From the NCBI GenBank assembly GCA_044356215.1, contig JBIKWQ010000007.1, positions 77 through 64,076 on the forward strand: a stretch of 64,000 bases of DNA. The letters are read 5' to 3'. The notes under the pieces were generated by a model, which saw only the letters and a program-made list of their open reading frames with translations, did not search any database and had not been told where the DNA came from. Made by a program: the position numbers and the translations under genes. The stretch is from Bdellovibrionota bacterium. Its GTDB lineage: Bacteria > Bdellovibrionota_C > UBA2361 > OMII01. Below, piece after piece: positions 7,440 to 57,783 of the stretch. How positions within the stretch are numbered: the first letter of the stretch is position 1; every line of letters begins with the position of its first letter.

Positions 7440-7599
7440 TAGGGCGTCGCAGTGTTTTTGGTAAGTTGCTGAGACAATGAGTAAAATATTTTTACCACAG
7501 AGGACGCAGAGGACACACAGAAAACCCCATAATTGCCCATAAAATCGCCGTTCTCTGTGTCCTCTGCGCTCTGTGGTGATAAAGAACTGAAACGCCCTA
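7440..7599. repeat. MITE-like palindromic repeat, family A, copy A1 (160 bp)
   Basis: Terminal inverted repeats tAGGGCGTCGCAGTG...ACTGaaACGCCCTa. Internal long hairpin ACCACAGAGGACGCAGAGGACACAGAGAA / TTCTCTGTGTCCTCTGCGTCCTCTGTGGT. Flanked by direct repeats TTGGTAGGA / TTGGTAAGA, which look like a 9-bp target-site duplication. The element ends 50 bp upstream of recQ. Confidence 0.8.
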
Positions 7600-17433: not shown

Positions 17434-17595
17434 CATGGTGTCGCAATGTTTTTGGTAAGCCAATGGGATAATTGGCAAAATATTTTTTACCACAGAGTAC
17501 GCAGAGGACACAGAGAAAGCTTCATAATTGTCAATAAAATGACTTATTCTCTGCGCTGCCTGCGTCCTCTGTGGTGAAAAGAACTGCGCCGCCCC
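17434..17595. repeat. MITE-like repeat, family A, copy A2 (162 bp)
   Basis: Same internal hairpin and TTTTGGTAAG...GAACTG architecture as A1. Flanked by a perfect 10-bp direct repeat ACAAGAGTTG at 17424-17433 and 17596-17605. Sits about 80 bp upstream of fabD. Confidence 0.8.
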
Positions 17596-17676
17596 ACAAG
17601 AGTTGAGGGTGGCTTGACATCTTATCGCTCAAAACAGATGATCCGTGGTGTTCAGAACTTAAGGAATAAATTTGCT

Positions 17677-37261: not shown

Positions 37262-37335
37262 TGGTTCGCCCGCAAGGACTCGAACCTCGATTTTCAGGGT
37301 CAGAACCTGACGTGCTGCCATTGCACCACGGGCGA
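37262..37335 (-). tRNA. tRNA-Gln (anticodon CUG)
   Basis: Manual fold. Acceptor TCGCCCG/CGGGCGA, D-stem GTGC/GCAC, anticodon stem TCAGG/CCTGA with loop TTCTGAC, T-arm CGAGG-TTCGAGT-CCTTG, and an encoded CCA. Confidence 0.85.
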
Positions 37336-37398
37336 ATACATAAAGCCCCGTTACTGTAGCACGGCCAGCGCAGGGGTTCAAATCCCGGCGCTCTAGCC

Positions 37399-37561
37399 TA
37401 GAGCGTTGCAGTTCTTTATCACCACAGGGGACGCAGAGGACACAGAGAATAGGCCATTTTATTGGCAATTATGGAGTTTTCTCTGTGTCCTCTGCGTCCT
37501 CTGTGGTAAAAATACTTCATTAATTATCCCAGCAGCTTACCAAAAACACTGCAACGCCCTA
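37399..37561. repeat. MITE-like repeat, family A, copy A3 (163 bp, inverted orientation)
   Basis: TAGAGCGTTGCAG...CTGCAACGCCCTA termini. Flanked by a perfect 9-bp direct repeat GCTCTAGCC at 37390-37398 and 37562-37570. Lies about 63 bp upstream of the tRNA-Gln 5' end. Confidence 0.8.
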
Positions 37562-37659
37562 GCTCTAGCCTTGACCCTTATCTGATAACGGTAGCTTGCC
37601 GGAGGATAGGAGGCCATCCCTTAAAAAAACAAGCTTATCGCAAAATCGATTGGGCAAAA

Positions 37660-37975
37660 GGTCAATCCCTAAATAGGCTTTACACGTAAACGTGCTCGTG
37701 CTCGTGAACGGCACCCCGTATAACGTCGATGTGCACGTTTAACGTGTTTCGTGCACGAGCAGGAGCACGACAGTCGTTAGGGCGTGGCAGTTCTTTATCA
37801 CCACAGAGGACGCAGAGGACACAGAGAACGGCCATTTTTTGGGCAATTATGGGGTTCTCTCTGTGTCCTCTGCGTCCTCTGTGGTAAAAATATTTTACTA
37901 ATTATCACAACAGCTTACCAAAAACATCGCGACGCCCTGGACAGACGTTTACAGGCACGAGCATGCAAACGTGGA
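37660..37975. repeat. MITE-like repeat, family B, copy B1, interrupted by family-A copy A4
   Basis: Starts GGTCAATCCCTAAATAGGCTTTACA, as in B2. Internal inverted repeats CGTGCTCGTGCTCGTGAACG / CGTGCACGAGCAGGAGCACGA. The continuation after A4 (ACGTTTACAGGCACGAGCATGCAAACGTGG) matches the B2 right half. Confidence 0.6.
37779..37939. repeat. MITE-like repeat, family A, copy A4 (about 161 bp), inserted inside family-B copy B1
   Basis: AGGGCGTGGCAG...CGCGACGCCCT termini. Flanked by GACAGTCGTT / GACAGACGTT, a 10-bp direct repeat with one mismatch. Confidence 0.8.
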
Positions 37976-38194
37976 AATATTTGATTTATCAGCGAAAAAT
38001 CACGACTTATGACTATCAGCGCTGGTCGCTGTCAGTGATGAGCCTGAAAACAAATGGCACCCAATTGCCAGGGTTATCTTTCCCCCCTCTCTTCATTGCC
38101 CAACTAATACGACAAGTTACAAAATACCATATATTTTGCCCCAACGATTTGCACCAACCCCTAATAAATGATACCTTGCGGGTCTACATTACGT

Positions 38195-38270
38195 GGCCCC
38201 ATCGTCTAGTGGTCTAGGACGCTGGCCTCTCACGCCGGAAACATGGGTTCGAGTCCCATTGGGGTCACCA
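38195..38270 (+). tRNA. tRNA-Glu (anticodon CUC)
   Basis: Manual fold. Acceptor GGCCCCA/TGGGGTC, D-arm GTCTAGTGGTCTAGGAC typical of tRNA-Glu, anticodon stem CTGGC/GCCGG with loop CTCTCAC, T-arm with GGTTCGAGTCC, and an encoded CCA. Confidence 0.85.
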
Positions 38271-39287: not shown

Positions 39288-39881
39288 TTGAAAGTGGGCG
39301 CTTCAACCGTAGGAATTCTTGGTTACCAGGGATGCATTGAGCCGCACGAGGCGATCTTTAAAGCGCTCCGTGTTAATTGCATGCGGGTCCGAACACCTGA
39401 GGATCTAGAAAAAGTAGATCGTATAATCCTTCCCGGTGGCGAGAGCACCACGATGCTTCGTTTTATGAAGCTTCACGGGATGTTTCCTGCTCTGCAAGAG
39501 TTCGCTAAATCGCACCCTGTATGGGGTATCTGCGCCGGCGCGATTCTGCTCGCTGCCGAAGTAACCAATCCATCGCAGGACTCCTTACAGCTAATAGATA
39601 TCGTCGCTCACCGCAACTTCTACGGCTCCCAACTAGATTCCTTTGATGCGCGGATTACGATCGATCTATGCGCCGAACCAATAACAGCTCAGTTCATTCG
39701 AGCCCCGTTATTAGCTCCACTTAAGAGCGCTAAATCAGGGTCGAGAGATGCTCTAAAGATCCACGCCTACTACAACGACCAGCCTGTATTCTTCTCCCAA
39801 GGAAATGTTTGGGCCTGCTCATTTCATGTCGAGTTAGGCAGTAATCTTGAGCTGCATCGGAGATTTGTGGATGGGGGATAA
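39288..39881 (+). CDS. pdxT: pyridoxal 5'-phosphate synthase glutaminase subunit PdxT
   Basis: Class I glutamine amidotransferase (GICAG nucleophile elbow) immediately downstream of pdxS. Confidence 0.9.
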   Translation: MKVGASTVGILGYQGCIEPHEAIFKALRVNCMRVRTPEDLEKVDRIILPGGESTTMLRFMKLHGMFPALQEFAKSHPVWGICAGAILLAAEVTNPSQDSLQLIDIVAHRNFYGSQLDSFDARITIDLCAEPITAQFIRAPLLAPLKSAKSGSRDALKIHAYYNDQPVFFSQGNVWACSFHVELGSNLELHRRFVDGG

Positions 39882-39889
39882 TCCTCCCC

Positions 39890-46717: not shown

Positions 46718-46880
46718 CAGGGCGTCGCAGTGTTTTTGGTAAGCTGCTGGGATAATTGGTAAAATATTTTTTACCACAGAGGACGCAGAGGACACAGAGA
46801 AAACCCCATAATTTACCGTAAAATTGCCGTTCTCTGTTTACTCTGCGTCCTCTGTGGTGATAAAGAACTGCGACGCCCTA
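46718..46880. repeat. MITE-like repeat, family A, copy A5 (163 bp)
   Basis: cAGGGCGTCGCAGTG...ACTGCGACGCCCTa termini with perfect 13-bp inverted repeats. Flanked by TCAACAAGA / TCAACGAGA, a 9-bp direct repeat with one mismatch. Confidence 0.85.
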
Positions 46881-54331: not shown

Positions 54332-54625
54332 GTGAAAGACTATCTAAACATAGATCAGGTGACACTAGATCATATGAGGAGCTTAGCCGTTAGGCTGGAT
54401 CCGGGTACGCTAGCTTTTTATCTGCGAGTTCCGCGCAACCAGGTCGTGTTAATTCAGGCTTATTTTGAGCTGTATGATGGAGTAGGCACCGTTCGCACCT
54501 TCGCGGGAAATGAGCCGGTGCTTTGCGTTATGACGACTGACGGAATGCTAGACGATTGCATCGGGACATTAATGGCGCTTCGGGAGGAGGTTAGTTGGGA
54601 GATTACGGGGTCAATCCCTAAATAA
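54332..54625 (+). CDS. hypothetical small protein (97 aa) whose last codons and stop lie inside repeat B2
   Basis: ORF 16 bp after gatB. Its C-terminal GSIPK and TAA stop are encoded by the left inverted repeat of family-B element B2. Confidence 0.4.
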   Translation: MKDYLNIDQVTLDHMRSLAVRLDPGTLAFYLRVPRNQVVLIQAYFELYDGVGTVRTFAGNEPVLCVMTTDGMLDDCIGTLMALREEVSWEITGSIPK

Positions 54626-54799
54626 GCTTTACAGTATTTCCCGCGTGCTCGTGCTCGTAAACGAGAAACGTACCCGAATTAAGGGTCCTGCAGAAGCCGA
54701 GCTAAGATGTCAGAAGTGGCAAATCGGGTACGTTTACGAGCAAGTGCACGAGCACGTTCACGTGGGATTGACCATGTAAAGTTTATTTAGGGACTGACC
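54609..54799. repeat. MITE-like palindromic repeat, family B, copy B2 (191 bp)
   Basis: 25-bp terminal inverted repeats GGTCAATCCCTAAATAAGCTTTACA / TGTAAAGTTTATTTAGGGACTGACC. Internal inverted repeats CGTGCTCGTGCTCGTAAACG / CGTTTACGAGCAAGTGCACGAGCACG. Confidence 0.75.
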
Positions 54800-54903
54800 A
54801 TCTCAGCTCGGCTACTGCGTGACCCGTTCACGTGCTCCCCCCAAATAAAAATCCTCCCTTCCCCCCTGTCCCAACCCTTAAAAACTAGGTAAAACTACCC
54901 GTT

Positions 54904-56832: not shown

Positions 56833-56980
56833 GGAAACCCAACTCGGGGGTAAGATGCTGGGTAGGGTTGTGGTAGAGATAGAGTTTGCATATAGCAGCC
56901 GTAAACGCAAACGTCCGTCGTGCACCTGCTCGCGCACGAAAACCTGAAACGCTTATATCGACTACGCACTTAGTTTTATT

Positions 56981-57412
56981 TCCACCGCAGGGGACGCGGG
57001 ATCGGATATCGAGAATGTGACCCTTTGCTAGTAATCCAGACACCCCCTCCTCGTCCTCCGCGTCCTCTGTGTTAAAAAAATATCCGCTACATCACTGAAG
57101 TACTCCTCAGCGAATCACGATCGCAGCTCGCAATTACCAAACTTAGCTTTCTCAAGAGCCTGAACTTTTTATTTTACCGCAAAGGACGCAAAGGACACAA
57201 AGTTCGCTTTATGTAGCGGCGAAGATTCCGCTCTCAGTATTTTTATTCTCAACGCTGAGTACGCAGAGGACGCGAAGCCGGATATCGGCCATTCGACCCG
57301 TCACTAAAGATCCAGACACCTCCTCCTTTGTGTCCTTTGGGTCCTCTGTGTTAAAAAAATACCTGCTGCAGTACTCAAGTACCCCCCAGCGAATCACGAT
57401 CTCCGATCGGAA
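56981..57412. repeat. block of two degenerate tandem units (period about 275-280 bp) related to family A
   Basis: Repeated segments GACGCGGGATCGGATATCG / GACGCGAAGCCGGATATCGG, ATCCAGACACC(C)CTCCTC, GTCCTCTGTGTTAAAAAAATA and GCGAATCACGATC. Inverted arms ACCGCAAAGGACGCAAAGGACACAAAG / CTTTGTGTCCTTTGGGTCCTCTGTG resemble the family-A hairpin. Confidence 0.6.
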
Positions 57413-57783
57413 TCACAATCCTCGTAGTTCTCCCCTTTCCTTAAGCCTGTACGACTATCCCAGAATAAATTCTACATCGAGGTAGCGGAGGGCCACGGCG
57501 AGATGGATCCCGATGACATAAGCGAAGGAAGCCCCACCACGGCCCTCCTCTACCTATCTAAGAACACATTTACACAGCCTGTGTGACTGTGTATAATCCT
57601 CAAAATGGCAGTTGCGGGTCCCAAAGCGGCGCATCTGGCTAAAATCACTGCGGCTTTTGAATTTTCGGTGCTCACCCTGACGGTGCCAGGGTTGCGCGCC
57701 GAGAATTTCAAAATCTCTTGTGCTTTTAACCAGCTGCACCATTTTGGTCCGCCTTAACTGCCGTTTTTAGGATACTATGCCTT

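What the first reader, a model, noticed from the sequence alone, without database searches (positions are those of the whole stretch)
37660..37975. Nested insertion: a family-A element landed inside a family-B element between tRNA-Gln and tRNA-Glu
The family-B copy B1 begins at 37660 with GGTCAATCCCTAAATAGGCTTTACA. It runs to 37778, where copy A4 (37779-37939) is inserted. A4 is flanked by GACAGTCGTT / GACAGACGTT.

B1 then resumes with ACGTTTACAGGCACGAGCATGCAAACGTGG. That sequence matches the right half of copy B2 at 54725-54765.

The 37.26-38.27 kb interval therefore holds tRNA-Gln, a family-A copy (A3), a family-B copy with a nested A copy, and tRNA-Glu. This is a local insertion hotspot. 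It gives a relative chronology: family B arrived before A4.
Basis: seen in the sequence. Interest (0 to 1): 0.6.

Follow-up and report, generated by a model that had tools for sequence, protein, structure and literature searches.

The report
Small transposon nested inside another repeat
A 162-base miniature transposon has landed inside an older small hairpin-type mobile repeat in the spacer between two tRNA genes of an uncultured freshwater Bdellovibrionota bacterium; this kind of event is ordinary, but the host repeat belongs to an undescribed family that inserts without duplicating its target.

Summary
Family A is a real MITE. All six copies examined (five in the window, one in a related contig) are about 162 bp, have YAGGGCGTYGCAGT terminal inverted repeats and carry a 9-bp target duplication.

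Copy A4 (37778-37939) is flanked by GACAGTCGT / GACAGACGT. With A4 and one duplicate removed, B1 aligns at 88% with uninterrupted family-B copies from related metagenomes, straight across the junction. Those copies carry the 9-mer only once. The nesting is therefore genuine, and copy B1 predates A4.

Relatives with the same gene order have a 221-237 bp tRNA-Gln/tRNA-Glu spacer without either element, against 859 bp here. The spacer has accumulated at least three insertions. Targeting of this site is not shown.

Family B is the more interesting part. It has a near-invariant 25-nt 5' head (GGTCAATCCCTAAATAGGCTTTACA) fused to different long-hairpin bodies. It forms head-to-tail arrays. At the pdxT/rfbC junction there are exact filled and empty alleles with no target duplication. 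It behaves like a REPIN or BIME, but no transposase partner was found.

The window comes from an uncultured freshwater Bdellovibrionota bacterium. Nested small repeats are a known phenomenon, so interest is modest.

The parts
37262..37335 (-). tRNA-Gln (anticodon CTG), left boundary of the spacer
   Evidence: ARAGORN; Rfam tRNA 64.9 bits
37390..37398 (.). Left 9-bp target duplication of A3 (GCTCTAGCC)
   Evidence: Sequence; identical to 37562-37570
37399..37561 (+). Family-A MITE copy A3 (163 bp)
   Evidence: Alignment of A copies; 92.6% identical to the family consensus
37562..37570 (.). Right 9-bp target duplication of A3 (GCTCTAGCC)
   Evidence: Sequence
37660..37684 (+). 25-nt 'head' of family-B copy B1 (GGTCAATCCCTAAATAGGCTTTACA)
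   Evidence: 0 mismatches; 0 matches expected in shuffles. The same 25-mer heads 74 elements in related genomes and metagenomes
37660..37777 (+). B1, part to the left of the A4 insertion (head plus main hairpin 37691-37769)
   Evidence: Inverted repeat I6; alignment to uninterrupted copies; fold
37769..37777 (.). Left 9-bp target duplication of A4 (GACAGTCGT; one substitution). It is part of B1
   Evidence: Sequence. The B consensus reads CGACAGACGTTTAC once
37778..37939 (+). Family-A MITE copy A4 (162 bp), nested in B1
   Evidence: 95.7% to consensus; single-strand hairpin z = -10.2
37940..37948 (.). Right 9-bp target duplication of A4 (GACAGACGT; the ancestral form)
   Evidence: Sequence; matches the B consensus
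37949..37986 (+). B1, part to the right of A4. It is a clear B sequence to about 37959, then a decayed inverted head, so the right boundary is uncertain (37975-37995)
   Evidence: Local alignment continues to about 37986 with two 3-nt gaps. BLAST homology to other copies stops about 11 nt past the junction
38195..38270 (+). tRNA-Glu (anticodon CTC), right boundary of the spacer
7440..7599 (-). Family-A copy A1 (comparator); TSD TCTTACCAA / TCCTACCAA
17434..17596 (-). Family-A copy A2 (comparator); perfect TSD CAACTCTTG
46718..46880 (-). Family-A copy A5 (comparator); TSD TCTCGTTGA / TCTTGTTGA
54609..54799 (.). Family-B copy B2, a two-headed form with inverted 25-mers at both ends. The body is of subfamily 1 read on the minus strand
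54800..54837 (+). Partial B-like fragment abutting B2. It is complementary to B2's interior and ends at a C-run
   Evidence: Inverted repeats I2 and I7; sequence
56879..56962 (+). Truncated, degenerate family-B copy of subfamily 2 (part of the head plus the first ~70 nt of the body)
   Evidence: Local alignment
39881..39882 (.). Empty site, immediately after the pdxT stop codon. Other strains carry a 171-bp family-B insertion here with no target duplication
   Evidence: Filled alleles L002, L049, L053, L004. Empty allele L048 has identical flanks GGGATAA^CCCCCCCCC. The window, L001, L050 and L052 are also empty

Best explanation
The tRNA-Gln/tRNA-Glu spacer of an uncultured freshwater Bdellovibrionota genome took up three small non-coding mobile elements in sequence.

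A family-B element (B1) was already in place when a family-A MITE (A4) inserted into its 3' part. The staggered cut of a DDE-type transposase acting in trans duplicated 9 bp of B1 (GACAGACGT). One duplicate later acquired a substitution. A second family-A copy (A3) inserted independently 217 bp to the left, just upstream of tRNA-Gln.

What is shown:
- the element boundaries and the 9-bp duplication in 6 of 6 family-A copies;
- continuity of B1 across the junction;
- absence of both elements from the same spacer in relatives with the same gene order.

What is inferred:
- Family A is mobilised by an ISAs1-like IS. The evidence is its ends (C/TAGGGCG) and the 9-bp duplication.
- Family B is a different kind of element: a 25-nt conserved 5' head plus a long hairpin body. 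It inserts without target duplication, stacks head to tail, and therefore probably moves as a single-stranded hairpin intermediate in the manner of REPINs or IS200/IS605 relatives. Its partner enzyme is unknown.
For: Family A: five window copies and one in L038 all have 14-nt terminal inverted repeats and 9-bp flanking repeats with unrelated sequences.

Nesting:
- With A4 removed, B1 aligns to 8 uninterrupted copies across the junction, at 88% over 126 columns.
- Seventeen BLAST hits span query positions 138/139, which is the junction.
- The 9-mer is single-copy in those copies.
- The other four window A copies and the L038 copy have unrelated flanks and are not flanked by B sequence.
- The GCACGAGCACG motif occurs in the window only in the B copies.

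Not an assembly artefact: L002, from a different sample, has the identical arrangement. At least six other assemblies carry the A4/B1 right junction.

Ancestral state: L055, L056 and L057 (neighbouring TPR protein 62-69% identical, same pdxS-tRNA-tRNA-TPR order) have 221-237 bp spacers with no A or B.

Family B mobility without TSD: there are exact filled and empty alleles with a 171-bp insert. B3 folds as a long hairpin with an unpaired 5' head, z = -5.9. Head-to-tail arrays were seen. The published REPIN intermediate is a hairpin with a 5' single-stranded tail, and REPINs insert into or next to other REPINs (PMC3116915).

ISAs1 lead: ISArsp11 of that family has IRs CAGGGCTGATGCAAAGTCG and a 10-bp DR (PMC6305408).
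Against: - No allele of B1 lacking A4 was found in either public collection, so there is no direct before/after pair for this insertion.
- B1's right end is decayed. It matches the expected inverted head only weakly, so its exact boundary is uncertain.
- No IS with family-A ends and no transposase associated with family-B heads was found in any held locus. Both mobilisation mechanisms are therefore inference.
- The hairpin of family B shows almost no covariation, because the copies are too alike to test it.
Confidence: 0.9

Rival explanations
1. The B-like sequences on either side of A4 are two separate B fragments, or a recombination product, that happen to adjoin a family-A copy. On this reading nothing inserted into anything.
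For: B1 is atypical. It lacks the 11-nt linker after the left head and has no clean right head. B elements do occur as fragments and chimeras elsewhere (54800-54837; 56879-56962).
Against: The two pieces abut in exact register with the B consensus once A4 and one 9-mer are removed. The duplicated 9-mer is the same length as in all other family-A insertions. Two independent fragments would not recreate a 9-bp direct repeat of consensus B sequence.
Confidence: 0.03
2. The arrangement is an assembly artefact, produced by mis-joining of repeat copies in a metagenome-assembled genome.
For: Contigs of this population commonly break inside or beside these repeats. L003 and L006 carry foreign sequence to the left of the A4 remnant.
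Against: L002, assembled from another sample, reproduces the whole A3-end/B1/A4/B1 arrangement at 99.4% identity, including the TSD mismatch. The right junction recurs in at least six further assemblies.
Confidence: 0.02
3. The spacer is a true targeted hotspot. On this reading the elements are drawn to tRNA-flanking DNA or to each other's hairpins, and do not merely survive there.
For: Three of the window's eight A or B copies lie in one spacer. Its ancestral length (about 220-370 bp) is roughly 4-6% of the ~6-8 kb of intergenic DNA. A second repeat cluster exists at 56.8-57.6 kb. B elements often sit directly against one another.
Against: The family-A target duplications share no motif. The other four A copies lie in ordinary short intergenic regions. 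Small numbers and purifying selection against genic insertions can explain the clustering. Relatives show no elements at this site.
Confidence: 0.25
4. Family B is not a transposon. It would be a host-maintained intergenic structural or regulatory motif, for example an mRNA-stabilising or protein-binding hairpin with a conserved 25-nt protein site, spread by recombination and duplication.
For: The head is nearly invariant across different Bdellovibrionota species while the bodies differ. The elements lie between housekeeping genes, often at 3' ends of genes. No transposase was found.
Against: There is a precise 171-bp presence/absence polymorphism at a site that otherwise has no head. Multiple dispersed near-identical copies and tandem stacking were seen. 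There is no Rfam family match.
Confidence: 0.15

Closest known systems
Bacterial MITEs derived from DDE insertion sequences, here most like ISAs1-family ends (for family A)
   Same: Family A is about 162 bp with no ORF, has 14-nt terminal inverted repeats, a fixed 9-bp target duplication and multiple dispersed copies in both orientations. Its ends are C/TAGGGCG. ISAs1 members have CAGGG ends and 8-10 bp duplications (from my own knowledge of ISfinder family tables; example ISArsp11 in PMC6305408).
   Different: No autonomous IS with these ends was found. The interior is a 30-bp-arm hairpin built from a 9-mer repeat (CACAGAGGA) that is itself widespread in unrelated genomes.
REPINs (REP doublets forming hairpins) mobilised by RAYT transposases, and BIME-type mosaic arrays (for family B)
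   Same: Family B is extragenic, 136-190 nt, forms a long imperfect hairpin with an unpaired 5' tail, shows no target duplication, and occurs in clusters and tandem arrays with insertion next to or into other copies. REPIN features are taken from PMC3116915.
   Different: The most conserved part is an asymmetric, non-palindromic 25-nt head, not a REP palindrome. Several unrelated bodies share that head, and some bodies lack the hairpin arms altogether (L012/L017, 375 nt). No RAYT was seen in about 0.4 Mb of held loci.
IS200/IS605-derived palindrome-associated elements (PATEs)
   Same: Ends are asymmetric, there are no terminal inverted repeats in the one-headed forms, there is no target duplication, and there is a palindrome at the 3' end (CACGTGCA-GG-TGCACGTG in L002).
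   Different: No conserved 4-5-nt target precedes the head in 74 copies. The head itself is not a hairpin. No TnpA or TnpB gene was found nearby.
Nested or adjacent insertion of small repeats
   Same: One small non-autonomous element interrupts another, which gives a relative order of events.
   Different: Here the two elements are of mechanistically different kinds: one makes a TSD and the other does not. The host is an uncultured Bdellovibrionota lineage for which no such repeats are described; two literature searches found nothing relevant.

Membership tests
MITE (DDE-transposase-dependent), family A | Short (<~300 bp), non-coding, multicopy | tested here: met
   Five copies of 160-163 bp in 64 kb and one in L038. 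Only spurious ORFs overlap them.
MITE (DDE-transposase-dependent), family A | Terminal inverted repeats | tested here: met
   TAGGGCGTYGCAGT ... ACTGCGACGCCCTR, conserved in all copies ([I7, I9], 6, 73).
MITE (DDE-transposase-dependent), family A | Target-site duplication of constant length with unrelated sequences | tested here: met
   9 bp in 6 of 6 copies: three perfect (A2, A3, L038) and three 8/9 (A1, A4, A5).
MITE (DDE-transposase-dependent), family A | A full-length IS with the same ends in the same or related genomes | not testable with these tools
No such IS is present in the window or in the held loci.
ISAs1-family derivative, family A | Ends beginning CAGGG and duplication of 8-10 bp | tested here: met
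   The right end reads CAGGGCG in the A2, A4 and A5 copies and in the consensus, and TAGGGCG in A1 and A3; L038 reads CAGAGAG. The left end reads TAGGGCG or a close variant. The duplication is 9 bp. The family traits come from my own knowledge plus the ISArsp11 example.
ISAs1-family derivative, family A | Cognate ISAs1-type transposase | not tested
   No candidate protein was available.
REPIN/RAYT system, family B | Two inverted palindromic units that fold into one long hairpin; extragenic | tested here: met
   B3 folds at -36 kcal/mol, z = -5.9, and reconstructed B1 at z = -4.4. All neighbours examined are housekeeping genes.
REPIN/RAYT system, family B | Insertion without target duplication | tested here: met
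   Filled alleles (L002, L049, L053) and the empty allele (L048) differ by exactly 171 bp, with no repeated flank.
REPIN/RAYT system, family B | A single-copy RAYT (Y1 HUH transposase) gene flanked by the repeats | tested here: inconclusive
   tblastn with IS200 TnpA and RAYT probes written from memory found nothing below E = 0.1 in the window and the loci held at that point. No complete genome of the lineage was available.
REPIN/RAYT system, family B | Hairpin maintained by compensatory changes | tested here: inconclusive
   In 14 subfamily-1 copies, 1 of 27 predicted pairs shows a double change. The copies are 88% alike.
IS200/IS605-type PATE, family B | Specific short target sequence abutting the left end | tested here: not met
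   The 5' flanks of 74 heads share no 4-5-nt motif.
Classical TIR MITE, family B | Two terminal inverted repeats and a target duplication | tested here: not met
   The polymorphic copy and many others have one head only. No duplication is present. Two-headed forms such as B2 exist but also lack flanking repeats.
Known structured RNA (Rfam), A or B | Score at or above a family's gathering threshold | tested here: not met
   Only the two tRNAs pass. At E <= 1 there are only generic miRNA-hairpin hits far below threshold on the A hairpins, and nothing on B2.

The most novel reading that the evidence does not exclude
Family B may be a previously undescribed class of small mobile DNA in Bdellovibrionota. 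It would be defined by a near-invariant, non-palindromic 25-nt 5' head that is recombined with several unrelated bodies. It would move without target duplication, perhaps by head-specific recombination of an excised hairpin or circle, which would explain the head-to-tail arrays. The enzyme would be none of the known RAYT, IS200 or DDE partners.
Probability: 0.2. Interest if true: 0.55.

Novelty: new member of a known kind. Interest (0 to 1): 0.3.

Why it matters
The nested insertion itself is a routine outcome of repeat proliferation. Its practical value is as a clean relative-age marker and as an explanation of why assemblies of this population break at this locus.

It also documents two repeat families in a phylum where none are described. 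One of them (B) has natural filled and empty alleles, which prove TSD-free mobility, and a 25-nt head conserved across species. That head is a ready handle for finding the responsible enzyme once a complete genome exists.

Tried and rejected
1. I searched both large collections for the pre-insertion allele of B1 (AGCACGACAGWCGTTTACAGGCACG). There were no hits, so no direct empty site for A4 exists in the data.

2. Only the first ~51 nt and a gapped 3' stretch match, because B2 belongs to another subfamily. I replaced it with subfamily-2 copies from metagenomes.

3. I looked for a transposase beside family-B heads. Pfam on 20 neighbouring ORFs gave only housekeeping families. tblastn with Y1-transposase probes gave nothing.

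4. I tried to reach the orthologous spacer in close relatives (95% and 88% identity). Every contig breaks at or near the repeats, and too few proteins are identical to walk along the 101-kb contig of L033. I used more distant relatives with the same gene order instead.

5. I tested whether the 17-nt inverted pair 37643-37659 / 38134-38150 marks a third element enclosing B1. It has no other copies outside the orthologous locus.

6. Covariation analysis of the B hairpin was uninformative.

7. Rfam gave no match at either threshold.

8. The promoter/terminator scan of the spacer found nothing above shuffles.

9. PLSDB plasmids gave no match for B. Matches for A cover only the low-complexity hairpin core.

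10. The viral-contig scan for the B head returned nothing.

11. I followed the cross-phylum matches of A's hairpin arm. The 9-mer repeat CACAGAGGA is widespread and is often an in-frame coding repeat, so it gives no evidence for homology of the elements.

12. Literature searches for Bdellovibrio MITEs or REPs, and for the motif strings, found nothing relevant.

Full report
WHAT IS THERE

The interval lies between divergently oriented tRNA-Gln(ctg) (37262-37335, minus strand) and tRNA-Glu(ctc) (38195-38270, plus strand). Upstream are a Kup transporter, a lipoprotein and a 650-aa TPR protein. Downstream are pdxS, pdxT and rfbC.

The window matches an NCBI metagenome-assembled contig of 64,395 bp (P0001). 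The organism is an uncultured Bdellovibrionota bacterium. Every genome record that carries the family-B 25-mer is a Bdellovibrionota or Bdellovibrionales MAG. From my own knowledge, the 'ME' sample names in those records denote Lake Mendota. Contigs 99-100% identical to the window come from several lake metagenomes.

FAMILY A

Repeat finding and alignment give five copies in the window:
- 7440-7599 (-)
- 17434-17596 (-)
- 37399-37561 (+)
- 37778-37939 (+)
- 46718-46880 (-)

They are 160-163 bp long and 83.5-95.7% identical to their consensus. Each has terminal inverted repeats TAGGGCGTYGCAGT...ACTGCGACGCCCTR and an internal 30-bp-arm hairpin. As single-stranded DNA, A4 folds at -44 kcal/mol, z = -10.2.

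Each copy is flanked by a 9-bp direct repeat of unrelated sequence:
- A3: GCTCTAGCC (perfect)
- A2: CAACTCTTG (perfect)
- A1: TCTTACCAA / TCCTACCAA
- A5: TCTCGTTGA / TCTTGTTGA
- A4: GACAGTCGT / GACAGACGT

A sixth copy, in metagenome locus L038, has the perfect repeat CCAATAGCC on the + strand (found as its reverse complement GGCTATTGG). This is the signature of a DDE-transposase MITE.

The ends (C/TAGGGCG) and the 9-bp duplication fit the ISAs1 family. That family has CAGGG ends and 8-10 bp duplications (my own knowledge); an example is ISArsp11, with IRs CAGGGCTGATGCAAAGTCG and a 10-bp DR (PMC6305408). No parent IS was found, so this attribution is inference.

THE NESTING TEST

A4 is 37778-37939 and the duplication is 9 bp: 37769-37777 and 37940-37948.

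That gives only a partial match, because B2 belongs to a different subfamily.

A scan of public genomes and metagenomes for the 25-mer head returned 37 loci carrying 74 heads in total. Many heads are attached to a body that is the reverse complement of B1's body.

Reconstructed B1 aligns with eight such uninterrupted copies straight through the junction. It is 88% identical over 126 columns to a typical copy, and 17 BLAST hits span the junction. All of these copies read ...GCACGAGCAGGWGCACGASAGACGYTTAC... with the 9-mer present once. The right-hand copy in the window (GACAGACGT) is therefore the ancestral sequence, and the left-hand copy has mutated.

The rest of B1 to the right of A4 is a decayed inverted head. 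Its boundary lies somewhere in 37975-37995.

The arrangement is not an assembly artefact. L002, from another sample, reproduces it base for base, including the TSD mismatch. At least six other assemblies carry the right junction. No allele lacking A4 was found.

THE SPACER IN RELATIVES

Close relatives could not be used, because all their contigs end at these repeats.

More distant relatives were usable. Their TPR proteins are 62-69% identical and they keep the order pdxS - tRNA-Glu - tRNA-Gln - TPR. Their spacers are 221, 221 and 237 bp and contain no A or B sequence.

The window's spacer is 859 bp. A3, A4 and their duplications, together with B1, account for about 490 bp of the excess. The remaining ~140 bp is not repeated anywhere in the held data.

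Three of the window's eight A or B copies therefore lie in a spacer that originally made up a small percentage of the ~8 kb of intergenic DNA. That is accumulation. Targeting is not demonstrated, because the family-A duplications share no motif.

FAMILY B

This is the less ordinary component.

Modular structure. The head GGTCAATCCCTAAATAGGCTTTACA is nearly invariant in different Bdellovibrionota species, while what follows it falls into at least five body types. Two types are built from GCACGAGCACG-type arms that fold into a long hairpin and leave the head unpaired. A 375-nt form in another MAG shares only the head and the 3' tail.

Arrangement. Units are frequently stacked head to tail, for example at a 136-nt period in L037. 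Some have a second, inverted head, as in B2, L034 and L045.

Mobility. Immediately after the pdxT stop codon, strains L002, L049, L053 and L004 carry a B unit, which measures 171 bp in the three contigs that span it (L004 ends inside it). L048 has the identical flanks with nothing between them (GGGATAA^CCCCCCCCC). The window is also empty at this site. There is no target duplication.

Context. Neighbouring genes are housekeeping genes. No Y1 transposase was detected in the held loci. No Rfam family matches, and there is no plasmid or viral match.

Comparison with known systems. These traits parallel REPINs. REPINs form a hairpin with a 5' single-stranded tail in the putative intermediate, insert into or beside other REPINs, and form tandem arrays (PMC3116915). 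Membership is unproven. The defining RAYT association could not be tested, the conserved unit here is an asymmetric head and not a REP palindrome, and the IS200/IS605 requirement for a fixed target next to the left end is not met.

CHRONOLOGY

Copy B1 predates A4. At family level the order does not follow. A4 is present wherever its junction is covered and has a mutated duplication. A family-B copy, by contrast, is still polymorphic among strains that are 99% identical.

VERDICT

The observation and its interpretation are correct, and the phenomenon is ordinary. The families are new members of known kinds. Family B has some chance of being a distinct mechanism.

Noticed in passing
window 39881|39882; L002:2339-2509; L048: Natural filled and empty alleles of a 171-bp family-B insertion lie directly after the pdxT stop codon. 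The flanks are identical and there is no target duplication. The C-run next to the site also varies between strains (TCCTCCCCC versus CCCCCCCCC).
   Followed up: yes
window 56833-57560: This is a second repeat-dense intergenic stretch. It holds a truncated B copy (56879-56962), two related A-like hairpin elements (about 56975-57140 and 57170-57420) and another hairpin (57470-57560) that resembles a body type seen behind B heads in L030 and L038.
   Followed up: partly
window 37800-37885 (A hairpin arms); L058, L059; L060-L117: The 9-mer repeat CACAGAGGA that forms family A's hairpin arms recurs in Gemmatirosa plasmids, in Bacteroides and in 58 viral contigs. Sometimes it appears as hairpins, and often as an in-frame N-terminal coding repeat (TEDTEDTE...), typically after ...TTAAC/TTGAC. 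Why this motif is so widespread is unexplained.
   Followed up: partly
window 37643-37659 and 38134-38150: A 17-nt inverted pair (AAATCGATTGGGCAAAA / TTTTGCCCCAACGATTT) brackets B1, A4 and 160 nt of unique sequence. No other copies were found outside the orthologous locus, so it may be chance or the ends of an unrecognised element.
   Followed up: partly
window 37365-37385; L055-L057 spacers: The block GGTTCAAATCCC, upstream of tRNA-Gln, is conserved in distant relatives. On the minus strand it reads TTGAAC, followed 17 nt later by TACAGT. It may therefore be the tRNA-Gln promoter, with A3 inserted just beyond it. The consensus scan did not call it.
   Followed up: partly
L025 versus L026:10373-10535: Two metagenome contigs share the same left flank. 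One has an extra complete B unit in front of the unit they share. This could be either insertion exactly at a head boundary or loss of a unit by recombination between heads.
   Followed up: no
L012:4690-5063 and L017:7144-7520: A 375-nt element in another Bdellovibrionota MAG shares only the 25-nt head and the 3' tail (CGGGTACGTT...GTGCAGGTGCACGG) with the window's B copies. This suggests the two ends are the functional parts.
   Followed up: partly
L058:240-440 (Gemmatirosa plasmid 2): One hairpin built from CACAGAGGA-type repeats sits inside another hairpin built from CGCGGAG/CGCAGAG repeats. This is a nested-hairpin arrangement in an unrelated phylum.
   Followed up: no
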